The notes under the pieces were generated by a model. That model was not told the origin of the DNA. It saw only the letters and a list, made by a program, of their open reading frames with translations, and made no database searches. The position numbers were made by a program, and so were the translations under genes. Source: Minutocellus sp. GHC0000111 (lineage: Eukaryota). From it: DNA of 64,000 nt. This document shows, in pieces, positions 12,376 to 62,069 of this stretch (position 1 is the stretch's first letter; the number at the start of each line of letters is the position of its first letter). Location of the stretch: positions 6,448,001 to 6,512,000 of the forward strand of contig OZ361256.1 in NCBI GenBank assembly GCA_977018835.1. The letters run 5' to 3'.

Positions 12376-12829
12376 GATGGTTGAAGTGTTGTTATTACGA
12401 TATCGATTGACTGACTTCGAGTACTGATGATGATGATATTTGATGACTGATCACAGGGGGGGGGCTCGAGGAGAAAGGGGAAGACAAGGGAACGGAAGGG
12501 ACGGCGTCATGTATTTTTCTCTCCCCGTCTTTTTTTACTGTCGGGTTAATTGTTAATAAAATTGTAAAACCTGCCAGTAAAACGACAGCCAAAAAAGGTA
12601 ATTTGTGAGACAATTTGTAATAAATATGATTCTTTTGACGAAACCTTTGTCATTTATGATGCGTCTTTTCTTCGTCAGGTTAGAAAAACTGTCCGTCGTT
12701 CGTATAAGGGTCGGTAAATTAGTATGAATTTTAAAAACTGCCAGCAAAATCACAATATTTTTCACTAAGTGTTGAGACAATTATTGAAAATTATTGCTTT
12801 TTAATTAGTTCCTTTGCAAATTCCAGTGA

Positions 12830-14401
12830 CGAAGAGGGAGATCTGATCTTTCTTTGTTCAAGGCACCTTTGCATGTGCTGTCAAGGTGCGGCAAAGTGAA
12901 TGCTTGCGCACTGCATTGCATCGCTGCGTTTGAATCGCCAATTTGCATCTTTGCGTGTCGAATGGTGTCGTGTGTTGGTGTGCGAGCGCATTTCATCCCG
13001 ACGAACGATTGGCGAAGTCTCATCGAACAGGCAGGTGCTGCAACATTTATTTGGGCACAGCAAGTTCGGGTGCTGTTGCTGTTACGTATTTCGTCAGCCA
13101 TCATTTGATTGGCATCACACGGCATCGCACGGATTTCTCTGTTGTTACTGACTGATTTGATCGTTTGTGTAAGCAGCAATGGCGTTTTCTTGTCCCGGGC
13201 GAGACATCCAAACACATGCTCTTTCGATGCCTTTCTTTGGGCAGAATCCCATAACCAGCACATGGCTCACACCGCATTGTGACACCAATGGTTTCATTCC
13301 GTCGAGTGTCATCCTTACATGATTAGTTACAGTGCCACCGTTGACTCTCTCCCCTGGAACAACATGTCTGCATGTGTGTCAAATTTTGAGAACGAAATTC
13401 TGTGTTCGTCTCCTGAGTTGGGGATGCCTTGTGATGTGTTGCCATCGTTGATGGACTCTGCTTTGCGACACATTAGAATGTTTTACATGCTTCTCACTGA
13501 GTGAATTGAAACCATGTGTGTCAAATCACTGCTTGAAAAAGATAGTGATGTTTATTAATTTAGAGTGAATTGTGTTGACTTCTGTGCAACTTCAAGGGCA
13601 CCAACAGCAAAAGGGGGGTGGGGGTGCGGGGGAGGGGGTCGCGAAGCGACGGGCTCCCCCGCTTAGCATGAAATCGATTCAAATTGTTTGAAGTCATCGC
13701 ATGAACCGAAACATGAAAAAGACGGGCTCCCCCGCTTAGCATGGTGCGTCACAGTTTTGATCAACAACAAGTTGCCTCGAGTGGTAAGGTTTTGAAGTCA
13801 TCAGTGAGAACTGGAACACCGAACCGCCTCAACCAAATCACACGATTTTTGTCTCGAAACAAATCAAAATTGAATTTGTTCACTGACAAACACAAGTTTA
13901 CAAAATTCTGTCTGGTTAGGCAACAGAACTTAACGCCTTCTTGTTCCAGCATTTCTGGATCATCAATGAAATGCATGAGCTCATGGTGTTCAAGAACATC
14001 TCTAAAAAACTGCAGAGATTGAAAGCATGTCTTGGTCGCTTGACGACTTCAAGCTCTCTCAGCTAAAATGCCGCTGTGCGTCTTGTTACAGAGACAGGTA
14101 GACTCAATGCAAAACATTGCTTCTCTGACTGGAACGTGTCTCATAAAAGACTGACTCACAAGACGGACACTCACTTACAATTGTCTCTGTCATGGCCATT
14201 TATGTTGTTCAAACACACACACCTAAGACCGGAAATTACAGTGGTCTGACTCAATTGTCCTAATTGATATCCAGCAATGACCATGTCCTGCAGATGTTGC
14301 AGACTTGCAATGTTTTCATGATGTCTGCTTTCTCTCACAAACTCAGAAACACATCACGACATTGCCACCTGCGGTTGTGTGCAAACCCATGCAAGTCAAC
14401 T
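12830..14401. mobile_element. Degenerate, TpA-depleted repeat or transposon relic abutting the copia 3' LTR (possibly Helitron-like)
   Basis: AT-rich, with no credible ORF, but TA strongly replaced by TG/CA; GC-rich hairpin at 13626-13662; 23-bp direct repeat gacgggctcccccgcttagcatg at 13648-13670 and 13721-13743. Confidence 0.5.
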
Positions 14402-14597
14402 TGCTAAGAGGTCCTAAAGCTAAGCTAGATAGATATAGCTAGTAGAGGTTAATAGGACCTACGTAGATGAAAAATGGGCCATCGGAGATGTCGTTGTCCC
14501 ATGGATCAACGGTCAGGAGAGGGCACTGAGTCAGTGGTCTGATCACCGTACGTACCGTACGTATGTATACGTACGTACGCATCCCACGGTGTCAACA
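14402..14597 (-). repeat. 3' LTR (196 bp)
   Basis: 192/196 identical to 20434-20629; TG..CA termini. Confidence 0.96.
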
Positions 14598-14646
14598 CAC
14601 CCTCGCAGATCAATGACTAGTGCCATTGAATCTACATGTAGAGTCC

Positions 14647-16770
14647 TAATTGGAATCTACATGTAAGTAGACTGGTCGCATGTCGACATGGTAGCGGGCG
14701 GGATGGTGCTTTGTAAAATAATCGGCCAAATTTTGCGCTCCTTTCCGCCAGTGCACCTGGAGTTGTCGTTCGTTGCTCTGTGCGATCTTGGACCCAGCAG
14801 AGTCTCATGTCCATAGCCTTAGACCGTCTTTGCTTGACGGTTTTATTGGCGATTCCAGATGCTGTAGAGTTGTCAACGACGATAACAGTAGGGGGCTGCG
14901 GGTGACCCATTTCTTCTAGTGCTGCCCGGATTGGTGCTGCATCTTTCATGTTGATTGAAAAACAGTCCTCCCAACTCGGCTTCAGCGGCTGGCTGAGGAC
15001 GTTACATGCTTGATGACATTGGCATTGACGAGGATGGCTCCATTCATTGGTGGCATGGGATCACTTGAGTCAGGCTGGCGGTGCGAGTCCTTAGGTCGGG
15101 AGCTTAGGTAGAAGTGCCCTCCGAGCTTGCTTCTTGATTTCGGGGCTGACAAGTGGGAGGCGTCGCTGTGCACATGTGGGATCATGTCTGACTTGACGTG
15201 TCGAATGACTGCGTCGGGATGGGTTGCAAGGTAATCTAGAAGCTTCTTGGCATCTTGTCGAGTGCGCTTGGTAGCTTTGGATTGTTCCGCTGAGATGCTG
15301 TTGAGCGCCGGTAAAATTGTTGAATCAATTGCTCGACCATGGTGCAAGGAGCTGCCCACCACCTGTTGAATTTCGTTGATGCCTTTGGCGTCGAGTGGTG
15401 GTGAGTCGTCTTCCGGTTCTGGCAGCTGGGGTCCCGGGCCACACGTCGGACGATTCCATCGATATGGCGCATGCTCGGGCCGTGAGGGGCGGTCGTGTTG
15501 GAACTTGTGGCGCATCTCCTTGACGTAGTTAGGCATAGATAGATCCACCCATTTGGCCTCGTAGTTCCACTCGAGTTGAACACCACAATAAAGTCGGCCT
15601 TCCCAATCGGTAGTGATCTTGTGCTTGGAGTTGAGGGCCTGAATGAGATGGTCTGCATGCTCTTTCCCGACACACCTTACTCCAAAATCGTCAACGGTTA
15701 GGCAAAAGGTAATTGGGCGGGTTTTGTGCCTCCAAAGGCCGGCAGTGCGCTTGCAAGGGAAATAGCCATGGGGTTTGAGATGCTTGACAAGTTGATCGTA
15801 GGCTAGGCACCCTGCCTGGGGTAATCCATGCATTCCGCCATCGATTCTGACCAATGCTCGACCATTCTTTACTTTGTCGTGGAGGTCGTAGGCTTCCATG
15901 ACTTCGTCGGGGATGAGAGCTACTGGCGCCCACATCCATTCTGGCTCTGGCATGGTGCTATTGAGATAGAAGTCACTGACATCAATTCCCATGAAACGAG
16001 CGTTGTCTGTAGAGATGACGCTGTTGAAAAGTAACTTTGCAGTCAACATTTCAGCGGTCGGGGTCGAGACTGTACCAGGGTAATGAATTTTGTCGCCTCC
16101 TGCAGTCCATCGAACTCGATTGGGATTTGGTTTATGGGAGCGATAGTCGGCGACAATGCGGAGGCATGTGGCTTTTTCCCCCCGAGGCAGTTCGGACCAG
16201 TGGACGAAAGCCATTGTGTTGGAGGGAATGCTAGCACTGTTTCCAACTCGGCCGTCCGTTAGCCGTCCAATTTCATCGATGTTTGCTTGAATGAATTGGT
16301 CCCTCATGTTCGTTTTGAGGAGGTCGCGGCATTCAAGCATTGCACCAGTGTCGGGATGGACGACGGCGTTAGCAAAGTGTTGGAGGTTTGATAAAGGCGA
16401 GAAAGCTGCCATGTTGGCCACGTGGTGGGTGCTACGACGAGATGATGGCCGTGGGGGAGGGTTCCGATGTGGAATGCACCCTCGCTGACGGCATGATCGT
16501 CGTCGAGGTGGTTTGGCGGTCGATGGTTTGGACTTGCTTGTCGATTTTGCTGGAGCTGGTAATGTTGGAGTGGTATCGATCGTTGGAGACTTGCGTTTAC
16601 GTTGCCGACGGGAGGTGGGGGCATTGGAACTTTGATTGGATGTTACGACGGTTGCATCGTCGTCATGATTATCATCATCGTCGAAGTTGGGCTCGTCTAC
16701 TGCAGCCAAAGGATTGTAGTAGTTGGAAGAAACTGACGAGCGAGGTGGCGCGTTGGATCGACGTGATCGA
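14647..16770 (-). pseudogene. Copia reverse transcriptase + RNase H, frameshifted and hypermutated
   Basis: RVRWTAGGD, D.SDFYL, GGMHGLPQAG, TVDDFGV, HSDAS, SSAAEAELGGLF, VDNSTASGIAN, SKAMDMR, NLADYFTKHH. Confidence 0.93.
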
Positions 16771-18841
16771 CAGATTTAGTGGTGGCTGCATCATATGTGG
16801 AGGATTTTGCCACCCTCGGAGGTTGCTGGGGCTGAGGTAACGGAGCGTTGGGGTTGGAGACAAGGTGACGGCCTACTTCAGTCTCGTTCATCTCTTCTAC
16901 GTCGTCGTCCTCGTATTTGGTTTTGTAGTACTTATGCTTCTTGTCAAATGCAACGACTCTACCCTTGAAATTGCGATCTCCAAACACTTTGGCGACGATG
17001 GTACCGAGGCGGAATCGTTGGGAGTCGTCATCGTTCTCCAGCACCCTCGGAGCTGCGGTTGTCTGCATCGTCTCATCAGAGGCGGAGGTGGCAGATTCTG
17101 CTGGGGTCACGCTGTTGAAAATCTCGGAGAGCTTTTCTAAAGCTTGACGATGCTCGTCTCGAAGGGGAGCAAGGGGTGCCGCTGGATGTGGATTCTGTAG
17201 AGCGTGCAGGAGTTCATGAGCTGCGACTATTGCTGCATCGGCCGACGACGTTTTGGGTACCGGAATCATTTTGGGGAGCCAGACGAGTGTGTTACCAGTG
17301 CGTTCCGCCCGAGTTTCCTCAATCCAAACCTTGTAACACCGGTAGTGTTCCATGGCTGGACCGACATAGCACCCATCAACGCCATGCGGGGACCAAGAGC
17401 CGCGTGCCGAGGGCATCTCGTGAAAGATGACCTTGCATCCGAGGGGGCCGAGAGGCGTGCGATTGAAATCAAAGCCGCCATTGAGTTGCTCGTACGCTGA
17501 TAGTCGAGGGTTGACTCGGGATGCTCTCAGGAAATTGAGGGTCATTGCCGCCTGCTCCAGCAATTTATCCCACAAGATGAGGGGAAAGTCGGGATCGGCA
17601 CCACAGAGAATCGCAATGAAATGATTCTTAAAGGTTCGAATGGCTCGTTCGGCCGCATTTCGGCGGTGCGAGTGCGTTGGGGTCAATTGAAAATCTACAT
17701 CCTTTTCTTCCATGAACTCCTTCAGCTCTCGACTCACTTCATTATCCAATCGTTGCAATTTTGGGCGAAATCCTCGCTTGGAGAGGTATTCGAAAATAGT
17801 TTGGTACGCTCGGCGCATTTCCGTTCCCAATCGGCTTTTCATTGGTTCGGCCAAGATGCTGTTGGAGTCATAGTCATAGACGACCATTATGTACTGGTGG
17901 CCAGAAATAGACGATACCAAGAAACGGCCGGGCTGATCTGAGAAGATCTGGCCCGTTATGTCATGACAATCAGCAAAGACATAGTTGGTGCGCTGTTGGT
18001 GTTGTGCCGGGTGGAGATCCTGCTCGGTTTCGTCCACCCCAGGGAGAGATTTTGGCGTAGCCATCGACCGTTTGGGCTTGGTCGACCTGATGTTCTTGCG
18101 CTGCTGGTCTAAGTGACCTTTAATCATCGGCATCGACTGTGGCATGTGCTTACGTACAAGCTTTGATGTGAGGCCTGGCCAAGATCTATAAAATCCCGCA
18201 TCGATTGCTTTGCACCAGGTAGATAGCTGAGGACTGCCAGCGCACCAATGTAAAAAGGCTACACGTTCCGGAACCGTCTCCTGGGCAATTGCGGCGTTGG
18301 CAGCATGTTGGATGACGTTGGGGCCGGGGAGCGGCGACATGGTGGGCGAGCAATTAAGATCTACCATCCACAATTTCGTTGAGGGGTCTCGTTTACCTTG
18401 CAAAATGACGGCATTGTCCTTGGCGATGACTACCGAATCCTTATCGAAAGTGGCAATGCATCCATCGTCACACAGCTGCCCAATCGATAGGAGCGATGAT
18501 GCCATATTATTGAAAACATAGGCCTTGCTAGCCGATGGGGAAACCCCAGGGAGGCGAAGCGTGGCCTCGTGGGTGTTCGTCATTGTGCTATTATCCTGAA
18601 GGGTGACGCTGATAGGAATTGCTGTCTGTTGGACGTTGAAAATAGGGCCATCGTACGACAGGCATTGGGGCTTCTGGACAAAATGTCCCGTCGTTCCAGT
18701 ATCTGCTGCGAGGACGATTGGCTCTTGAGTTGGAGGTTTGCTTTTTGACGTAAGAAAAGCTAACAAAGGCGGGGAGGAGGTGGATTCAGACATGCTGTCA
18801 TCCTCTATTTTATGCTGATTAACATCCACCGTCCCTCCCGC
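16770..18841 (-). CDS. Copia protease + integrase + Tudor-like domain (pol 5' half)
   Basis: ADTGTTGHF protease, SLLSIGQLCDDGC, integrase DQPGRF / RLDNE / HRRNAAERAIRTFKNHF, RGSWSPHG..G.YVGP..EHYRC. Confidence 0.93.
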
Positions 18842-20130
18842 TCAGTTACGACGCGAGCTACCACCGCAAGGATTGTACTTGGTGGCGTTATCAACGTGGT
18901 TGGGCCCTTTGCAAGTGCATTCAAAGCTGGGGTGGTTGGACGAATAGCCGCACGTGTGGCAATGGTGGCCTCTGGGGAGGATCGACTGCAGTTCCCGCTT
19001 CTCCTGGCGGTTGAGGTTAGAGGTTAGGACCTTGGCCTGGGAAGTGGCCGGCGCCGTTCTGCTGGCCACCGCCGCGGCAGCCTCCACTGCCACCAGCATG
19101 GTTGCGTCCCTCACGCAGAACGCGGTTCTCGGCCTTGAGTGAAGCTATTTCTTGGCGAAGTTTGGCAATGGTGTCATCCTTCTCGTTGCTCTTTTTGGCG
19201 AGGTTCGCCATCATGGCTTGGTTGGTCTTGAGGGCTTCGGTGGCATCAGCCAAAAGGAGATCGGCTCGAGAAAGAAATGGATCGTCCGAGGCCGATGAGG
19301 CCAAATTCGCGCCATGACATCCTGCCGCTTCGGTGGTGGTGTTGGCCATCTTCTTATCATGCCAATCGCGGAAGTCCGACTGCATGTTGGCCCACGTGCG
19401 TTCGGCCTCCGGTCTGTCATCCCAGTCCTCGCATGCCTTCTTTGCCAATGAGAACCTGCGCACGGAGCGGTAGAACTTGGAGACCTTTTGCTTGTTGGTG
19501 AAGGGTTCGCCGGCCGTTTCAAACGCCTTGAAGACTTTGTTGAACATGGCGATGTGGGTGTCGATGGGTCCCCCGTCGTGCTGCTTCTCGAGCTGCTTCT
19601 CTAATTCCTCCTTCTGAGTCTCGTTGAATTTCAAGTAGCGATCGGTGATGCTGTCGATGATTTGGCGGATGGTGACTGGCTGGAAACCGAGCATGTCATC
19701 TTCGAGATGATTGATGTAGACGGAGTCGATCGAGTCGAGGAGATTCTTGAGCGCCGTGTTGACTTGCTCGTGCAAGTTGCAGTGGCCCTTTTCGATGCAA
19801 TGTCCCCGGATTGCACGATCGCGTTGGTCTAGATTGGCCACGGCGGGAATGGTGGGGCTGGGGCCAGGATTTGCCGGAGGCACATGTGGTCGGCCGTTAC
19901 TTTTGGTGGTGTGTTCGGCATCGCTGACGACGAGGCCCAAATGGCCAAGGTTGTGCTCGGTCATTGCACCCTGCTGGAATGCTGGCCGCCTCTTGTTGAA
20001 GTTCCTTGAGCGCTTTGGCAACACGCTCGCGTTGGGGAGGTTGTCCTGGGTCACTCACACGTGTGATTAACTTGGTGGGGAGAATCGGCGCTGCGCCGAG
20101 AGGTTGGCCAAAAACTGCGTCGGGATTCAT
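18842..20130 (-). pseudogene. Copia gag with two frameshifts (~19970 and 19014-19027)
   Basis: KELQQEAASIP..GHLGLVVSDAE, W......RTWAN....F, TTEAAG(C)HGAN, C-terminal knuckle HCHTCG....H.S..C..K...H...AT..N..GGS. Confidence 0.85.
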
Positions 20131-20433
20131 GCTGGTGTTTCAGTCAGCGAAGACAGGCAGCACGGCGGTGTTGCTGCGAGACGTGTGATCGACAGAGAGA
20201 AGGTTCGATCCAGAGAAGTGTGATCGATTGGATGGGTCGATCTGGTCAGGACTTTCGGGGAAGGGATTGGATCGTCGTTCCAATATTGTCGAAAGAAACG
20301 GTCGTTTTGGCCAATTGAAGATGTGTCCGGTTTTTCGTGCGTGACGAGTGAGAACCCAACCAAGACAAACCGGTGAGGTAGGTGCGAACCGAAATGGGGC
20401 GAGCACGGGTGGAAAAGATGTGTCACGTAGGTC

Positions 20434-20629
20434 TGCTAAGAGGTCCTAAAGCTAAGCTAGATAGATATAGCAAGTAGAGGTTAACAGGACCTACGTAGAT
20501 GAAAAATGGGCCATCGGAGATGTCGTTGTCCCATGGATCAACGGTCAGGAGAGGGCACTGAGTCAGTGGTCTGATCACCGTACGTACCGTACGTATGTAT
20601 ACGTACGTACGTATCCCACGGTATCAACA
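20434..20629 (-). repeat. 5' LTR (196 bp)
   Basis: Direct repeat of 14402-14597. Confidence 0.96.
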
Positions 20630-20933
20630 CTTGCCACTCGGAGTCTGTTATGTTTGACAGAGGAGGAATCCAGCGTGGAGAAGTAGTTGTACCGAATCGA
20701 GCCAATCGAAACGAATCGAAATATCAAATAATGCTCTGTCTGTGTGTGGCGGAGAGAACGTGTTTTATGATCGTATTGTTTTACAAGAGCCGAATGGGCA
20801 GTAATCAGCTGCTTTGGCTTTTGCTCGCCGCTGAGTTCTGGCATCATCTGGCATCCGGCCGCGCGGCTTCTGGTTTGGGTTGGGTCGAGCAAGTCCCGCC
20901 CCGATCCCACCTCTAGTGCTGGCTCCTCATTTC

Positions 20934-21991
20934 ATGCCACGGCCGAAGGACGGGAAAATGGCGACCTCTCCAACCAAAGCCACTGCCGCTAACTCTAACA
21001 CCGCGGTATCCGAGGAGGACAACCCTTACCTTCGAATGCGGGCAGAAAAGATTGCGAGAAATCAAGCCAAACTAGCATCTTTGGGACTGCTTCGACCAAC
21101 TCCCTCTGCCACCTCATCGTCTCCGTCATCCGCGCGCCGCCCAGTGAAGAGCAAGAAGCGCCAAGCCCCTCCCAAGAAACCATCGGTGCCAGTCCGCCGA
21201 TCGGCAAGGCATGCCGGTGTTGAGGTGAATTACAAGGAATGGAGCGGAGATACAGTCAGAGCCGCCGCCATCGCCGCTTCAGCTCCCAAGAGGGCAAAGA
21301 CGGTAACAAACAATGCCTCCTCTGCCACCGCAGACCAAGTGGTTATCGACGAGGGTGCATTGCTGGCAGCGAAACAGAGCGCTGCTAGTACCACAACGAA
21401 ACCAAGCACAAAGAATACAATCATCCACGCGGGAGCCACGGTGCGCAAATATTGGGACAGGAACTCGAGTACACTGGCAAGGTGACGGTTATTGATGCCG
21501 CCGTGGAAGCATCGGCAGAGGCCAATGGCATGTCCCACACTCCAGGCGGAACTCTGTCTTTCAACAAGTTTTCTGGGATACTGGAATGGGAGAACGATGC
21601 CATGTTTCTGTTCGTGAATATAAATGCGCCAAATGCGGACGTTGTGAATGAATTCCTCGACGGCGGAAGGAAAATGACTTGGTTTGGTGGATCGCGGATG
21701 CACGACGGTACGACGTCGATTCAAAATCTCATTCGGATTGGACGAAAGGCGAGGGATGGCAAACTGACGGATGATAACGGGATTATACTGTGGGTGCGAA
21801 TGCATGACCCGAATATCAAAGGATTTACGCCCTACGCTTGTCTGGGCCGAGTGGCATACGAGAAGCATGCGCCCGGTACTAGGCCACTGGAGTTTGTGGT
21901 GAAATTACTGGACTATGAGGAGCTAATGAAGCAGGCCGGAAAGAGCAAGGGGAAAGAACCAACCTTCTTTCAAAGAGTCATTGAGATCTAG
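20934..21991 (+). CDS. Protein with N-terminal Y..R..KIARN..L.SLGL helix and C-terminal DUF3427-like (PUA/SRA-like) domain; 1-bp frameshift near 21450
   Basis: ORFs 20880-21485 and 21452-21991 join as KY-LGQELE if one T is restored; pattern LFVNI..NEFL..MTWFGG..IILWVR..YACLGRV..P.EF...L. Confidence 0.6.
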
Positions 21992-51454: not shown

Positions 51455-54001
51455 ATGCCTCAACCCCGTCGTCGAGCTTTGGCAGCTGCCTCGGGGGGAA
51501 GCTCCCGCCGACGTCCATCACCACCGTCTTTGTCGATGTCGTCGTCACACGAGTATACCACATCGCTCACGTCAAATTCTCCGCGTGGAAGTAGCGACAA
51601 GGGGCCGTCGTCGAGCACAAGCAGTAGCGATGGCAACAGCAGCAGCAGTGGCGATAATGAGAACCCACGCCGTAGCAAAAGTGTTCGAATCGCTTCAGAA
51701 GCTGTCATTATCACAGCAGCCGACAAGATATTATCACCAACGACAGCAGCAGCCGCAGGAGGAGGGCCGGTATCTGCCCTGCCACCCAGCGTATCCGAGA
51801 GCGATCTGTCGTCCGAGGATGGAGATGATCATCAAGATTCGATCGAGACATCGACCACCCCCACGGTCCACATTGCTACGCATCAACGCAGGGGGCGGAT
51901 CCAGTACACGACCGACACACACATGACATCGTCCAACAATGGTAGTAGCGACGAATCGTCACACTTCAACGAAAACGACGACGACGACGACCAATCCATG
52001 ACGTCCAACGCGACGGACCCACTGGTGACCACTCCCATCATCCGGCGGAGGAGGCGGATTGGCCGTCCCTTCACGGCAAGCTCTCCCATGGGTTGGAACG
52101 AGGAGTATCTAGCCTCACCGGTGTCGCCTACCAAGAAGTCCAAGACGGAGCCAATTCGAAGCAGCGCCAACATCAACAAGCAAGAAGAAGAAGATGATAT
52201 CGATACTAGTACGGAGGATGATGAGTTCCCTTTGATCGACCAAAAATGTACCAGTGAAGACGATACCATCGCCATGCCATCGTTGGGTGTGGATACACAA
52301 TCGAAAGCACCAGATATGCCGCTGTCGCCTCCACAAGAGCTTCGACGCCGGCGCCGTCGCCGTGGGAGGAAGATTGCAGGTGCCAGCACTACATGTAGCA
52401 GAAGAACAACTATGGCAGACGCCGAATATGAGAATAATGGCAGCGAAACAAAGAAGAACGACCACCAATTCATGTCCTTCTCGGCCTTCCGGATCAACTA
52501 CCTCATCGTTCACATTGCCATCATGCTGGCCGACGGACTTCAGGGGACCCACCTGTACGTCCTGTATGAAGGATACGGCTACTCCGTCGCATCGTTGTAC
52601 TGTCTGGGCTTTTTGACGGGTGCCGTCACGTCGCCCTTTATTGGTCCGTTCGTGGACAAGATTGGAAGGAAGAAGGCGGCCATGCTGTACTGCTCGCTGG
52701 AGATGTTCATCAATTGGTTGGAGCAGTTTCCGTACTTTTACGGTCTGATTGTGAGCCGTGTGATTGGCGGCATCACGACCAATCTGTTGTTTTCTGTCTT
52801 TGAGAGCTGGTTGGTCACCGAGCATCGCCGCCGGGGCTACGCCGAGGAGAAGCTGGAGACGATATTGCGCGACTCGGTGATTTTGAGCAACCTGGCGGCG
52901 ATTGCATCTGGCTTTTTGGCGGAGTTCTTGGCTGTGAAGTTTGGTCCTGTGGGGCCGTTTGAGGGCGCCGTGACGTGCACGGCGATCGCTCTGGTGCTGG
53001 TATCGACCATGTGGCGAGAGAACTACGGCAGCGATGTGCCGGGCGTGCAGAGCGTCCGTGGGTACATGTCGAGTGCGTTCGAGACGATAGTGACGGATAC
53101 GAACATCTCTCGCATTGGTTTGATTCAGGGTCTAACGGAAGGGTCGTTGCAGACGTTTGTGTTTCTGTGGTCTCCAGCGTTGGCTCGGTTTGCTGCCAAT
53201 GCTCCGTCGAATGTCCTTGGTCTGGATGGCAATGGTGAGCCGGCGTATGGTGTGATCTTTGGTGCATTCATGGCGTGTGGCGTCGCCGGTGGTCTGTCGG
53301 AGCCGTATGTGCGTCAAGTGGCAACCTACTTGGTCCGTGATCATGATCGGCGAGCTGGATTGCGTCGTCGTGATACCATCATTATTGATGGCGAAGGCGA
53401 GGTGAAGCCGGCCGCTGTGGAGTTTCTGGCGACGGGAGTGTATTTGGCTTGCGCAGGGTTGTTGATGGTGCCGTACTTGGTGCCAGCAGATGGCGAATAC
53501 TCGTTCAGTATATCTTTGTTGTCGTTTTTGGTGTATGAGTTCATGGTGGGTCTGTACATGCCCTGTGAAGGTGTGATTCGATCGATCTACATGCCAACGT
53601 CGTCTGTTTGCTCCGTGATGACGATGCTTCGAGTGATTGTGAACATCGCCGTGGCGTTGGGCGTAATCTCGACGAACTACGTGCCATTCACGACGGCATT
53701 TGCGGCAGTGTCGACGTTGATGATGATATCGGCGGGCATTCAGCTGTCGATGGTGGACAACAAGGAGTGGAGGAACTTTGTGAGGCGAATGAGTTCAATA
53801 CATGAACACACCTTCAATTCTTTTCATAGCTCCCATGTGATTGGCGATGGCGACATTCAAGCTACATTGAAAGAATTGAAGCAATTGATTCCAGCAGGGA
53901 AGGACAGTGACGATGTGGCCTCTTCAGCTCCACCAGGGACGAGAATGTCGCCCAACACCTCAATCAATTCAGATTTTGATGCCACACCGGTACCACCTTA
54001 A
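51455..54001 (+). CDS. MFSD5: MFSD5/MOT2-family MFS transporter (putative molybdate-anion transporter), copy A
   Basis: YLIVH...MLADGLQGTHLYVLY..YG, GGITTNLLFSVFESWLV.EH, EGS...FVFLWSP; long disordered N-terminus. Confidence 0.88.
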   Translation: MPQPRRRALAAASGGSSRRRPSPPSLSMSSSHEYTTSLTSNSPRGSSDKGPSSSTSSSDGNSSSSGDNENPRRSKSVRIASEAVIITAADKILSPTTAAAAGGGPVSALPPSVSESDLSSEDGDDHQDSIETSTTPTVHIATHQRRGRIQYTTDTHMTSSNNGSSDESSHFNENDDDDDQSMTSNATDPLVTTPIIRRRRRIGRPFTASSPMGWNEEYLASPVSPTKKSKTEPIRSSANINKQEEEDDIDTSTEDDEFPLIDQKCTSEDDTIAMPSLGVDTQSKAPDMPLSPPQELRRRRRRRGRKIAGASTTCSRRTTMADAEYENNGSETKKNDHQFMSFSAFRINYLIVHIAIMLADGLQGTHLYVLYEGYGYSVASLYCLGFLTGAVTSPFIGPFVDKIGRKKAAMLYCSLEMFINWLEQFPYFYGLIVSRVIGGITTNLLFSVFESWLVTEHRRRGYAEEKLETILRDSVILSNLAAIASGFLAEFLAVKFGPVGPFEGAVTCTAIALVLVSTMWRENYGSDVPGVQSVRGYMSSAFETIVTDTNISRIGLIQGLTEGSLQTFVFLWSPALARFAANAPSNVLGLDGNGEPAYGVIFGAFMACGVAGGLSEPYVRQVATYLVRDHDRRAGLRRRDTIIIDGEGEVKPAAVEFLATGVYLACAGLLMVPYLVPADGEYSFSISLLSFLVYEFMVGLYMPCEGVIRSIYMPTSSVCSVMTMLRVIVNIAVALGVISTNYVPFTTAFAAVSTLMMISAGIQLSMVDNKEWRNFVRRMSSIHEHTFNSFHSSHVIGDGDIQATLKELKQLIPAGKDSDDVASSAPPGTRMSPNTSINSDFDATPVPP

Positions 54002-54273: not shown

Positions 54274-56798
54274 ATGGTATCCGCCGCCGTTGCCGCCGCC
54301 CCAACGGCGGTATCATCCCATCCTACCGGCAAAATGAAGCCCTCCGATATGGAAAAATGGAAGAGGGCCTTCGCCAGGGCGAGCTCGTACAAGACCCGAC
54401 CGTCAACTGTAGCGGCAACCGAGTTCTTTGATCAGGCCAACACTTCCGCCGAAAATAATAGTAACGTTGCATCCTCGGAGAGATGGAGGACGCTCCCCGA
54501 CCGTCTGGTTGAGCTGAGCAATCGGCTCTGTGATGGATCCGATCACGTCCAATCGGAGAGGGATCGTCTGGCTTTTACGGCGGCGGTGTTTGCCGCGGCA
54601 CCACCGGATTTTCTCGAATCCTTCCGGGACATGTTTGCTGCGGCTCTGACCGTGCGTCAGGCCCGATGGAACCATGATTCGCAGGACGAAGACGAAGAAG
54701 ATGCCAACGAAATGGAAAGTCTCAGCCCGCCCTTCAATGAGTCAGATGTGTATGAGGCCCTCCGAACTCTGGGCTGGATCCAAACCAAGCTGGCCAAGCC
54801 GATGGGTGAGGCCTTACATGATACTATCCTGTCGGCCGTTCGGGACATGGTGGGTGGTGAGTTCGAGGATGGGACCATGCTGGAGCAGGTGGCCCAAACC
54901 TGGAAGGATACCGTCATCGTGCCGTGGGTTCGCGATGTGGTCGGGTCGGACGCCTACAAGACTGACGCCTGGGAGTCCAAGCTTGACTTTGCCGTGGCCG
55001 AATGCTTCGCTACCATCCGTATTGGAGAGATATTTGACATCGTTGCTACATTTCCGGATTCCCTGCCGGCCGTCCATGAATTGCGCGATGCGTTGGACCG
55101 AACCCGTATGCACACCAAGCTAGCTACCGAGCTTAGGGCAAGTCTGAGCCGAAGATTGATCCATCCCGGTGCCAATACGTCGCAAATTATCTCGGTCTAC
55201 TGCAATGTCATCAAGCTGCTCCGAGAGATAGATCCCTCCGATGGACTTTTGGATGTGGTAGCGGAGCCGGTTCGATCCTACCTCCGGGGGAGAAATGATA
55301 CCGTCCGGTGCATCGTCACCAGCCTGACCGATGAAAAGGCCGGCGGCGATCTGTACGAAGAACTTCGTAGGCAAGATGCTCGACCCCTTGAACAAGCCCA
55401 GCTGGATTCCGACGATGAGGGCGATGCTCCTGACTATGACTGGTCACCGCCTCCATCCCTCTTCAAACAACGGGGTACCATGGGATATGTATCTCAATCA
55501 GGCGGCACTGGTGACATATTGTCGATGCTCGTTGGTATTTACGGCAGCAAGGAGCTGTTTGTCAACGAATATCGCGTCATGCTGGCCGACAAGCTACTGG
55601 CCAATCTCGATTTCGACACCGACAAGGAAGTTCANNNNNNNNNNNNNNNNNNNNNNNNNNNNNNNNNNNNNNNNNNNNNNNNNNNNNNNNNNNNNNNNNN
55701 NNNNNNNNNNNNNNNNNNNNNNNNNNNNNNNNNNNNNNNNNNNNNNNNNNNNNNNNNNNNNNNNNNNNNNNNNNNNNNNNNNNNNNNNNNNNNNNNNNNN
55801 NNNNNNNNNNNNNNNNNNNNNNNNNNNNNNNNNNGGAAGTTCACAATCTTGAGCTTCTCAAACTGCGCTTCGGCGAGCTAAGTATGAGGCAGTGCGAGAT
55901 CATGATCAAGGATATCGATGACTCCAAGCGCATCAATAGTAATATCCGCGAAACTATAGTGGAGAAGAAGAAGAGGCGCAAGGAGGACCAACAAAAGAAG
56001 AAGCGCAAAAAAACACAGCAACCACCGGAACCAGCCGAGGTGGACGAGCCCGTGGTGGACTGTGCCATTGTGTCGCATATCTTCTGGCCGGCCTTGCAGA
56101 AGGAACAATTCAAGAATCATCCCCGCATCGAATCGCAGCTGGATGAATTCAGTTTGGAGTATGCAGCCTTCAAGAACCCCAGACGGCTCATTTGGCACCA
56201 GATTCTGGGCACCGTCCAAATCGAGCTAGAAGTTGTCGATGAAGATGGAGGCAGCAGTCATATGCAAGAATTCACATGCTCCACTCTGCATGCAACGCTT
56301 ATATCTCACTTTGAGGACAAGCAACAGTGGACACTTGAAGATTTAGCGAGTGAAACTGGCTTGTCAGAGGATGTTGTGCGGAAGAAGATGGGCTACTGGA
56401 TCAATAATCGTGTGGTGCAGTTGGTCAAGGGCAAGTCAGGCGGTGCAACTGTAACCAGGTACGAGCTCACCTCGGTAGACGAACTTGCCGATACCGAGCA
56501 TGACTCGGCTGCTGATTCCGACTACTACGAAGATGACGGAGAAGACCAAGCCTTATCAGCACGAGCTCAGCAGGCCGAGGAGATGCAGGTCTACGAGAGT
56601 TACATTTTTGGAATGTTGACCAATCTTGGCCAGCTACCGCTGGATCGGATTCACAACAACCTCAAGATGTTTGCTAGCGGTTCGGACCACAAATATGACA
56701 AGACAGCCCGGCAACTGAGCAGTTTTCTACAGAAGCTATGCAAGGAGGAAAAGCTCGAGTGTGCAGCTGATGGCATGTATCGGGTTTTGAAGAAGTAA
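54274..56798 (+). CDS. ANAPC2: Anaphase-promoting complex subunit 2 (cullin-like), interrupted by an assembly gap
   Basis: RLIHPGANTSQII, YLRGRNDTVRCIV, DILSMLVGIYGSKELFVNEYR.MLADKLL, ELLKLRFGE, CEIMIKDI.DSKRIN, YIFGMLTN. Confidence 0.93.
55635..55834. other. 200-N scaffold gap; true size probably zero
   Basis: ggaagttca is present on both sides; merging gives DKEVHNLELLKLRFGE in frame. Confidence 0.9.
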
Positions 56799-59702: not shown

Positions 59703-62069
59703 TCAGGAGAGATGTGTCTCTTGATACTGGCTGGGGCAATCTGGGACCAAATTATCGGCAGCAACATCGTCATGCTTCTTGTCCTTTGGCGATTCTGGGA
59801 TGCTGTCGAGAGGGAAGTGGTACTTTTTCATATCCTCCGACGAGAGGGACTTGCGGCTGCTTATGCGCCTCACAAAGTTCCTCCACTCCTTGTTGTCCAC
59901 CATCGACAGCTGAATGCCCGCCGATATCATCATCAACGTCGACACTGCCGCAAATGCCGTCGTGAATGGCACGTAGTTCGTCGAGATTACGCCCAACGCC
60001 ACGGCGATGTTCACAATCACTCGAAGCATCGTCATCACGGAGCAAACAGACGACGTTGGCATGTAGATCGATCGAATCACACCTTCACAGGGCATGTACA
60101 GACCCACCATGAACTCATACACCAAAAACGACAACAAAGATATACTGAACGAGTATTCGCCATCTGCTGGCACCAAGTACGGCACCATCAACAACCCTGC
60201 GCAAGCCAAATACACTCCCGTCGCCAGAAACTCCACAGCGGCCGGCTTCACCTCGCCTTCGCCATCAATAATGATGGTATCACGACGACGCAATCCAGCT
60301 CGCCGATCATGATCACGGACCAAGTAGGTTGCCACTTGACGCACATACGGCTCCGACAGACCACCGGCGACGCCACACGCCATGAATGCACCAAAGATCA
60401 CACCATACGCCGGCTCACCATTGCCATCCAGACCAAGGACATTCGACGGAGCATTGGCAGCAAACCGAGCCAACGCTGGAGACCACAGAAACACAAACGT
60501 CTGCAACGACCCTTCCGTTAGACCCTGAATCAAACCAATGCGAGAGATGTTCGTATCCGTCACTATCGTCTCGAACGCACTCGACATGTACCCACGGACG
60601 CTCTGCACGCCCGGCACATCGCTGCCGTAGTTCTCTCGCCACATGGTCGATACCAGCACCAGAGCGATCGCCGTGCACGTCACGGCGCCCTCAAACGGCC
60701 CCACAGGACCAAACTTCACAGCCAAGAACTCCGCCAAAAAGCCAGATGCAATCGCCGCCAGGTTGCTCAAAATCACCGAGTCGCGCAATATCGTCTCCAG
60801 CTTCTCCTCGGCGTAGCCCCGGCGGCGATGCTCGGTGACCAACCAGCTCTCAAAGACAGAAAACAACAGATTGGTCGTGATGCCGCCAATCACACGGCTC
60901 ACAATCAGACCGTAAAAGTACGGAAACTGCTCCAACCAATTGATGAACATCTCCAGCGAGCAGTACAGCATGGCCGCCTTCTTCCTTCCAATCTTGTCCA
61001 CGAACGGACCAATAAAGGGCGACGTGACGGCACCCGTCAAAAAGCCCAGACAGTACAACGATGCGACGGAGTAGCCGTATCCCTCATACAGGACGTACAG
61101 GTGGGTCCCCTGAAGTCCGTCGGCCAGCATGATGGCAATGTGAACGATGAGGTAGTTGATCCGGAAGGTCGAGAAGGACATGAATTGGTGGTTTCCCTTC
61201 GTCATACCGCTTGTCTTTGTTGTTGTTTCTGACACGTTTGCGTTATCGGTCACGTAGTCATTTGAATAGTCTCCACCCTGTGAGTATGGAAGAAAATGTT
61301 TGCCCTTATCATCTTCTGCTGTCTTGCCAAGGCGGCGACGGCGCAGAGCATTTTCCGGCGATAATGTTGGTATCGCGAGTTGATCTGCCGATGAAGAGGA
61401 ATCAATGTCGGGCATATAAATATTGGACGTGCTCTCCGAAGTTTTCCGCACAGGGGTGCTCAGATAGGTTTCGTTCCAACCCAAAGGTGAGCGGGCCGAG
61501 AAGGGACGGCCGATGCGCCTTCGGCGGCGGATGAGGGGCCCTACCTCGTCGGCACGGTACCCCGAGGGCGATTTCGACCCATCCGGCTGAACCACCGATG
61601 TGTAGGACATCTTGCCCTTTCGGTTGGGTGGCAACGGAGGTCCCTGCTGCAGCTGTTCTTGAGGAGTTTCGCTGCCCTCTGAAGCTTGCGCGGGCAACTC
61701 GTGCAGTTCTTGTTTCTTTTCTTGTGTTGGAAATTTTTCGCATTGGTCTTGGCTGGGCTTGGGCGTTGAAATTTCATCGGCATCTGTTAGGGCGGAACCC
61801 GCAGGCAAAATAAATGTCGCCGTTTTCTTCTTCTCAATCTTATCAGCAACGCACTTCTTGATAATCAAATCTTCTGCAGCGGAAGGCGTAGGAGTAGTTC
61901 TTTCTTCGAAGCTCTTGCTCAAGTTGAGAGACAGGGTGTAATCTCGTGGAGGCTCACCTCGGCCGCCAGTTGTGCTGGGGCTGCCATTGCCATTGCCGTT
62001 GCCGATGCCGCTGGTCGGCGGGGAGTCCTCCCGGGGCCGAGATCGGAACGCACGCCTTCGAGGAGGCAT
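59703..62069 (-). CDS. MFSD5: MFSD5/MOT2-family MFS transporter, copy B
   Basis: Same core as copy A with different N- and C-termini. Confidence 0.88.
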   Translation of the reverse strand: MPPRRRAFRSRPREDSPPTSGIGNGNGNGSPSTTGGRGEPPRDYTLSLNLSKSFEERTTPTPSAAEDLIIKKCVADKIEKKKTATFILPAGSALTDADEISTPKPSQDQCEKFPTQEKKQELHELPAQASEGSETPQEQLQQGPPLPPNRKGKMSYTSVVQPDGSKSPSGYRADEVGPLIRRRRRIGRPFSARSPLGWNETYLSTPVRKTSESTSNIYMPDIDSSSSADQLAIPTLSPENALRRRRLGKTAEDDKGKHFLPYSQGGDYSNDYVTDNANVSETTTKTSGMTKGNHQFMSFSTFRINYLIVHIAIMLADGLQGTHLYVLYEGYGYSVASLYCLGFLTGAVTSPFIGPFVDKIGRKKAAMLYCSLEMFINWLEQFPYFYGLIVSRVIGGITTNLLFSVFESWLVTEHRRRGYAEEKLETILRDSVILSNLAAIASGFLAEFLAVKFGPVGPFEGAVTCTAIALVLVSTMWRENYGSDVPGVQSVRGYMSSAFETIVTDTNISRIGLIQGLTEGSLQTFVFLWSPALARFAANAPSNVLGLDGNGEPAYGVIFGAFMACGVAGGLSEPYVRQVATYLVRDHDRRAGLRRRDTIIIDGEGEVKPAAVEFLATGVYLACAGLLMVPYLVPADGEYSFSISLLSFLVYEFMVGLYMPCEGVIRSIYMPTSSVCSVMTMLRVIVNIAVALGVISTNYVPFTTAFAAVSTLMMISAGIQLSMVDNKEWRNFVRRISSRKSLSSEDMKKYHFPLDSIPESPKDKKHDDVAADNLVPDCPSQYQETHLS

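What the first reader, a model, noticed from the sequence alone, without database searches (positions are those of the whole stretch)
14402..20629. All four differences between the two LTRs lie in TpA dinucleotides
The 196-bp LTRs differ at 14440 T / 20472 A (cTAg vs cAAg), 14453 T / 20485 C (aTAg vs aCAg), 14580 C / 20612 T (gCAt vs gTAt) and 14591 G / 20623 A (gTGt vs gTAt). Three are TpA<->CpA/TpG, both LTRs are affected, and none of the many CpG sites has decayed. LTRs are identical at insertion, so this internal control indicates post-insertion mutation at TpA. Caveats: the direction is inferred, n=4, and the LTR is TpA-rich. The LTRs keep most of their TpA sites, so they are hit far less than gag/RT.
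Basis: seen in the sequence. Interest (0 to 1): 0.8.

Follow-up and report, generated by a model that had tools for sequence, protein, structure and literature searches.

The report
TA-erasing mutation in diatom retrotransposon
A broken retrotransposon in a diatom genome has had many TA steps rewritten to TG or CA on both strands, mainly where a purine precedes and a pyrimidine follows, likely by a host adenine-editing defence like one measured in an unrelated alga; its two end repeats are a weaker internal control than they look.

Summary
The four LTR differences are as stated; all four at TpA has p about 0.003, or about 0.03 after allowing for choice of dinucleotide. The pair is a flawed control. 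There is no target-site duplication, and public contigs suggest the flanks come from two insertion sites. 14453/20485 is a variant shared by other copies, 14440/20472 is a transversion, and 14580/14591 could not be polarised directly. The underlying claim still holds on stronger data. In pol, TpA transitions explain 11 of 14 changes at conserved columns (11/52 opportunities vs 3/481 other transitions, CpG 0/63). 9 of 23 conserved tyrosines became His or Cys, versus about 1% in controls, on both strands. Loss is concentrated in RTAY: 3.3/kb vs 11.9 in host genes, lower than all 80 related loci. The host is a diatom near Extubocellulus. The same spectrum is published for integrated viruses in Bigelowiella natans; my searches found no diatom paper. 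This scan has noted it, RTAY rule included, in many other diatom windows. Likely mechanism: chromosomal adenine deamination of silenced repeats; enzyme unknown.

The parts
14402..14597 (-). 3' LTR of a copia-type element (196 bp); carries CA at 14580-81 and TG at 14590-91 where the other LTR has TA, both in RTAY context
20434..20629 (-). 5' LTR (196 bp); carries A at 20472 (all four runs laid have T) and C at 20485 (variant also present in other copies)
14598..14606 (-). purine-rich tract directly before the 3' LTR (PPT position; label inferred from position)
20420..20433 (-). primer-binding-site position after the 5' LTR (tRNA not identified); window G at 20422 where contigs of X5, X9 and X14 have A: a directly polarised TA>TG hit in RTAY context
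   Evidence: (loose ends)
18842..20130 (-). gag-like ORF1 (inferred from position, no Pfam hit), broken by a 4-nt insertion at 19955 and a 7-nt tandem duplication at 19013; TpA O/E 0.28
14613..18829 (-). pol (integrase before RT/RNase H, Tudor-like insert), 82-89% identical to intact P0001; frameshifts near 16773, 14987, 14951 and about 14770; 20 of 53 mapped tyrosines are His or Cys
12530..14401 (.). unidentified TpA-poor repeat-like relic abutting the left LTR (TpA O/E 0.29 and CpA/TpG O/E 1.56 over 12800-14401); its uninterrupted form continues in other contigs with sequence absent from the window

Best explanation
This copia-type retrotransposon and the repeat-like DNA beside it, in a diatom, have lost TA steps to TG or CA on both strands, chiefly in purine-TA-pyrimidine (RTAY) contexts, while nearby host genes and CpG sites are untouched, likely because a host enzyme deaminates adenine in silenced chromosomal repeat DNA. 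Shown: direction, TpA and RTAY specificity, both strands, restriction to the repeat block, loss of conserved pol residues. Inferred: A is converted to hypoxanthine and copied as G; the enzyme is a TadA/ADAT-type deaminase; targeting follows silenced chromatin; the process acts as defence. A minor TA>AA/TT class could come from abasic repair intermediates (hint only). The LTR pair probably joins two sibling insertions. The two left-LTR differences fit the RTAY process; the two right-LTR differences are a shared family allele and a transversion.
For: Conserved pol columns (at least 80% of 30 homologs): TpA transitions 11/52, other transitions 3/481, CpG 0/63, transversions 0/1234; Fisher p = 8e-10. 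Conserved Tyr to His/Cys: 9 of 23, versus 25 of 2234 in 90 control proteins and 18 of 1465 in 80 control loci. Both strands: 9 Tyr>Cys, 11 Tyr>His; A>G by 5' base TA 14/71, AA 2/86, GA 1/124, CA 0/102. Relative L001: TA to CA/TG 37 times towards the window, 15 the other way (p = 0.003); CpG symmetric, 41 vs 52. Contigs of four runs: 19 of 27 listed transitions are TpA<>TpG/CpA, in both directions between copies. RTAY 3.3/kb in the element, 11.9 in host DNA, minimum 4.1 among 80 loci; other TA classes unchanged. Tyr codons after a purine are hit 16/25, after a pyrimidine 4/25 (p = 0.001). Same spectrum measured de novo in B. natans (10.64898/2026.01.13.699255). Engineered TadA8e gives A>G/T>C off-targets at TA in genomic DNA (PMC13225742).
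Against: No enzyme was identified and no genome was available. Thymine oxidation would give the same end products. The RTAY preference is not seen in the L001 site-by-site comparison (RTAY 12/36, YTAR 8/14 changed). It is weak in the read-derived events (7 RTAY, 13 mixed, 0 YTAR of 20). The LTR keeps 9 RTAY sites per 196 bp. Some interior hits are shared by a large part of contig depth (14753, 15621, 15830), so part may be inherited from already-hit parents. Silencing and timing were not measured.
Confidence: 0.6

Rival explanations
1. Ordinary C>T decay or RIP: the ancestor had CA/TG and the TA alleles are derived.
For: RIP-type CpA>TpA gives the same pairs of states. 14580 and 14591 were not polarised directly.
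Against: Conserved residues are Tyr (TAY) in homologs and His/Cys in the window; no His/Cys>Tyr change; 18 of 18 Trp intact. Reads have A where the window has G at 15155, 17547, 18964 and 20422.
Confidence: 0.02
2. Same chromosomal, repeat-restricted process but different chemistry: thymine oxidation (5-hydroxymethyl/formyl-uracil mispairing) or deamination of a methylated adenine at TpA. These pathways are recalled, not from a call.
For: TA>CA and TA>TG are equally explained by a lesion on T or on A. The preference for a palindromic class (RTAY) could suit an enzyme that reads double-stranded DNA.
Against: No direct evidence for such marks here. The only published proposal is adenine deamination.
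Confidence: 0.2
3. Error-prone DNA synthesis (polymerase-eta-like A>G at WA) during repair in heterochromatin; the WA motif is recalled.
For: Both non-TpA A>G changes at highly conserved columns are in ApA context. The copy also carries several small tandem duplications typical of break repair.
Against: ApA 2/86 versus TpA 14/71; no transversions in 1234 opportunities.
Confidence: 0.08
4. A-to-I editing of the element's RNA, or reverse-transcriptase error, before integration.
For: ADAR-type enzymes favour a 5' U (stated in 10.64898/2026.01.13.699255).
Against: Hits are equal on both strands (9 vs 11). The neighbouring unidentified repeat is hit too.
Confidence: 0.04
5. For the LTR pair alone: the four differences are pre-existing differences between two family members joined by recombination or mis-assembly, not mutations after one insertion.
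For: No TSD. Flanks trace to different empty sites. C at 14453/20485 is shared by other copies; X9 contigs branch at 14580. TSD-less recombinants with >99% identical LTRs are described in P. tricornutum (PMC2806351).
Against: Both LTRs share T at 14497, where 98.6-100% of contig depth in four runs has G, so they are very close siblings. Three of four differences are still TpA transitions. This rival weakens the control but does not remove the process.
Confidence: 0.4

Closest known systems
TpA-restricted hypermutation of integrated NCLDV and virophage DNA in Bigelowiella natans (Mettrop et al., bioRxiv 10.64898/2026.01.13.699255; parts 1-4 of 5 read)
   Same: TpA>TpG/CpA on both strands, confined to foreign DNA, incomplete, enzyme unknown; the authors also saw TpA-poor sequences with transposase and RT domains.
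   Different: Stramenopile (diatom) rather than rhizarian; target is a multi-copy LTR retrotransposon rather than a single-copy viral insert; RTAY preference is not reported in the text read (supplements not seen); here inferred from standing sequence, there measured de novo.
Repeat-induced point mutation (RIP) of ascomycetes (abstract listings only)
   Same: Dinucleotide-specific transitions on both strands that destroy transposon genes.
   Different: Opposite direction (removes TpA rather than creating it); a 1.3-kb host inverted duplication in the window shows no TpA change.
CoDi Ty1/copia elements and TSD-less recombinants of Phaeodactylum tricornutum (PMC2806351; passages read)
   Same: Copia layout, TG...CA LTRs, near-identical LTRs without TSD, flanked by a truncated repeat.
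   Different: In the passages returned there is no mention of point-mutation bias; clade assignment was not tested by a tree.
TadA8e adenine base editor off-target signature (PMC13225742; passages read)
   Same: A>G/T>C changes in genomic DNA with preference for TA.
   Different: Engineered enzyme; nothing here shows that a natural homolog is responsible.

Membership tests
Ty1/copia (CoDi-like) LTR retrotransposon | Direct terminal repeats ending TG...CA | tested here: met
Ty1/copia (CoDi-like) LTR retrotransposon | RVT_2-type RT downstream of integrase in pol | tested here: met
   RVT_2 E 1e-5 but below the curated cut-off (25.8 vs 31.6 bits); nearly all listed homologs carry PF07727 or no domain call; integrase label rests on recalled motifs
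Ty1/copia (CoDi-like) LTR retrotransposon | Target-site duplication (single intact insertion) | tested here: not met
   aact/cttg, caact/cttgc, tcaact/cttgcc
Ty1/copia (CoDi-like) LTR retrotransposon | tRNA primer-binding site | not tested
   sequence at the expected place printed; no tRNA matched
B. natans-type TpA hypermutation | A:T>G:C transitions restricted to TpA, both strands | tested here: met
B. natans-type TpA hypermutation | Confined to foreign/integrated DNA, host genes spared | tested here: met
   within this 64-kb window only: TpA O/E 0.60-0.63 and RTAY 11.9/kb in host parts
B. natans-type TpA hypermutation | Target is integrated viral DNA | tested here: not met
   target is an LTR retrotransposon and an unidentified repeat
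B. natans-type TpA hypermutation | About 1000-fold raised de novo rate, varying between lines | not testable with these tools
   needs mutation-accumulation lines
B. natans-type TpA hypermutation | ADAT2/3 deaminase candidate in the genome | not testable with these tools
   no genome held
RIP | C>T transitions creating TpA | tested here: not met
   direction is the reverse
RIP | Triggered by any duplicated sequence | tested here: inconclusive
   host inverted duplication 52442-53793/59860-61211 has 2 core differences, neither at TpA, with 34 TA sites in an arm; it may be young or gene-converted
ADAR/RT-stage editing of retroelements | Changes on one strand of the element only | tested here: not met
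   9 sense vs 11 antisense

The most novel reading that the evidence does not exclude
Diatoms carry a natural DNA adenine editor that mutates silenced transposons at RTAY sites in the chromosome, a reverse-RIP genome defence shared across SAR with chlorarachniophytes; this copy catches it half-finished, with LTRs spared and pol destroyed.
Probability: 0.4. Interest if true: 0.9.

Novelty: new variant of a known kind. Interest (0 to 1): 0.66.

Why it matters
It extends a mutation process known in print from one 2026 preprint (viral inserts in a rhizarian) to retrotransposons of a diatom, a group with genetic tools, so the enzyme could be hunted. The RTAY context gives a fingerprint for that hunt and a possible natural DNA adenine deaminase. 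It would also distort LTR-based dating and GC content of diatom repeats. A partly hit copy with an intact 86%-identical relative is a good test substrate.

Tried and rejected
No whole genome was held, so the genome-wide LTR-pair spectrum could not be run. Members of the P0001-P0003 clusters could not be listed. An LTR motif found nothing in viral or prokaryote contigs, and P0001 found no viral-collection loci. The metagenome scan gave only one DNA-alignable relative, L001 at 77%, and no LTR. Laying contigs on the left LTR did not list 14580 or 14591, probably because they lie near contig ends; X9 contigs branch at 14580, but the major allele cannot be read. No contig among X1, X5 and X9 showed the left junction (flat depth up to 14394; contigs cannot prove absence). 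The left-flank repeat stayed unidentified. Bulk TpA O/E barely separates pol from host DNA (0.49-0.57 vs 0.60-0.63); only the RTAY class does. A two-base flank rule (RR-TA-YY fastest) was not reproduced: 0.23, 0.32 and 0.28 of host for the three RTAY subclasses. Density of 4-mer tandem repeats does not differ from L001 (4.97 vs 4.9 per kb).

Full report
Observation. The repeats at 14402-14597 and 20434-20629 are 196 bp, begin TG and end CA. They differ at exactly the four stated sites. 46 of 196 positions are in a TpA in either copy. All four falling there has p = 0.003, or about 0.03 after allowing ten dinucleotide classes. The within-LTR contrast with CpG (3/46 vs 0/24) is not significant.

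What the element is. It lies on the minus strand: a gag-like ORF (inferred from position), then pol with a weak RVT_2 hit. Pol is 82-89% identical to the intact protein P0001. Named homologs of pol include Thalassiosira and Cyclotella proteins. A host gene's closest named homolog is from Extubocellulus spinifer, a cymatosiroid diatom, at 82%. So this is a copia-type element in a diatom. No genome was held.

Is the LTR pair a clean control? Probably not. There is no 4-6 bp TSD. Contigs of X1, X6 and X9 continue the left flank past 14402 with a sequence absent from the window. Contigs of X1 and X10 reach the right flank from an upstream sequence that is also absent. X5 holds the right junction with no differences over 20603-21500. 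This matches the TSD-less recombinants between family members described in P. tricornutum (PMC2806351, passages); a mis-join cannot be excluded. Both LTRs share T at 14497, where 98.6-100% of depth in four runs has G, so they are close siblings.

Polarity of the four sites. At 20472 all four runs have T, so the window's A is derived. At 14453 T is the majority in X1, X5, X9 and X14, but C occurs at 18% in X1, 6% in X5, 64% in X10 and in the one listed contig of X6, so it is a shared variant. These depth shares are rough. 14580 and 14591 were not listed; X9 contigs branch at 14580. A fifth site, 20422 beside the 5' LTR, is G in the window and A in loose ends from X5, X9 and X14.

The process shows clearly in pol. 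I mapped 1312 residues to P0001 and kept columns where P0001, P0003 and (where it aligns) P0002 agree. At the 274 such columns conserved in at least 80% of 30 homologs, 11 of 14 changes are TpA transitions. That is 11/52 opportunities, against 3/481 for other transitions, 0/63 for CpG and 0/1234 for transversions (p = 8e-10). With no conservation filter it is 21/122 against 20/1443. Where several one-step paths existed, the TpA path was preferred. Of 23 mapped conserved tyrosines, 9 are His or Cys, against 25/2234 in 90 other proteins and 18/1465 in 80 loci (maximum 2 in any one). All 18 Trp are intact and there is no His/Cys>Tyr change, which excludes RIP-like direction. Strands are balanced, 9 to 11. 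A>G by 5' base is TA 14/71, AA 2/86, GA 1/124, CA 0/102. L001 shows TA loss towards the window (37 vs 15) with CpG symmetric.

Contig evidence. The table showed 40 of 211 rows. I dropped five adjacent ones (13733-13737). Of the remaining 35, 27 are transitions and 19 of these are TpA<>TpG/CpA: 10 derived in the window, 9 derived in other copies. All four listed A/T transversions also involve a TpA (12559, 13171, 16968, 20472). This is a weak hint of a by-product class.

Context. TA loss is concentrated in RTAY: 3.3 per kb in the interior, 1.1 in RT/RNase H, 11.9 in host DNA and 10.2 in 80 pooled loci, none of which is as low. Other TA classes are unchanged. Tyr codons after a purine are hit 16/25, after a pyrimidine 4/25. 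Against this, the L001 site comparison shows no RTAY preference (12/36 vs YTAR 8/14), and read-derived events show little (7 RTAY, 13 mixed, 0 YTAR). The two left-LTR differences are RTAY; the two right-LTR differences are not. The LTRs keep 9 and 11 of 11 RTAY sites, so they are relatively spared. Selection on promoter function, gene conversion or open chromatin could explain this (inference). The unidentified repeat at 12530-14401 is hit too. A host inverted duplication has two core differences, neither at TpA.

Mechanism. Shown: directional, two-stranded, TpA/RTAY-specific loss limited to the repeat block. Inferred: lesion in chromosomal DNA, most likely adenine deamination by a TadA/ADAT-type enzyme on silenced DNA (about 0.6). 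Engineered TadA8e leaves the same TA-biased signature (PMC13225742, passages). Rivals are thymine oxidation or methyl-adenine chemistry (0.2), error-prone synthesis (0.08), RNA/RT-stage editing (0.04) and RIP-like decay (0.02). Whether the LTR differences predate this arrangement is a separate question (0.4).

Comparison and novelty. Mettrop et al. (10.64898/2026.01.13.699255; parts 1-4 of 5 read) measured TpA>TpG/CpA hypermutation of viral inserts in B. natans and proposed ADAT2. The text has no mention of diatoms or LTRs. Its supplements are closed and may bear on flank context. Searches returned no diatom report. Term searches in two recent preprints found no TpA or hypermutation mention. 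The library lacks most subscription papers. Earlier notes of this scan report the same process (162 findings) and the RTAY rule (27 findings) in other diatom genomes; these are unchecked leads. I derived RTAY before reading. Unlike some of those notes, CpG is not lost here. Verdict: the process is real and a new variant of a barely known kind; the LTR pair is its weakest evidence. Interest 0.66.

Noticed in passing
window 14951, 14987, 20356, 20376 (4 nt), 19013 (7 nt); also 19955, 20194 (4 nt, imperfect): The window copy has many small insertions relative to other copies: 6 of the 12 indel rows shown (63 in all) are 4-nt, four of them perfect tandem duplications. This resembles staggered-break fill-in such as Top2/NHEJ duplications in yeast (10.1101/2020.05.03.075358, abstract only). 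No link to TpA sites was shown.
   Followed up: partly
window 12530-14401: Unidentified repeat-like relic with the lowest TpA in the window; other copies skip 13288-14005 and continue past 14402 with other sequence. No family found.
   Followed up: partly
window 52442-53793 and 59860-61211: Inverted duplication of an MFS_5 transporter core, 2 differences in about 1.3 kb, with unrelated N- and C-terminal parts; possible gene conversion.
   Followed up: partly
window 16870-17010: Tudor-like domain (PF21743) inside pol between integrase and RT, also in P0001-P0003; could be a chromatin-targeting module.
   Followed up: no
window 14497/20529: Both LTRs share a T where nearly all contig depth in four runs has G: a private sub-lineage marker.
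   Followed up: partly
window 55635-55834: 200-base run of N inside the APC2 gene region.
   Followed up: no
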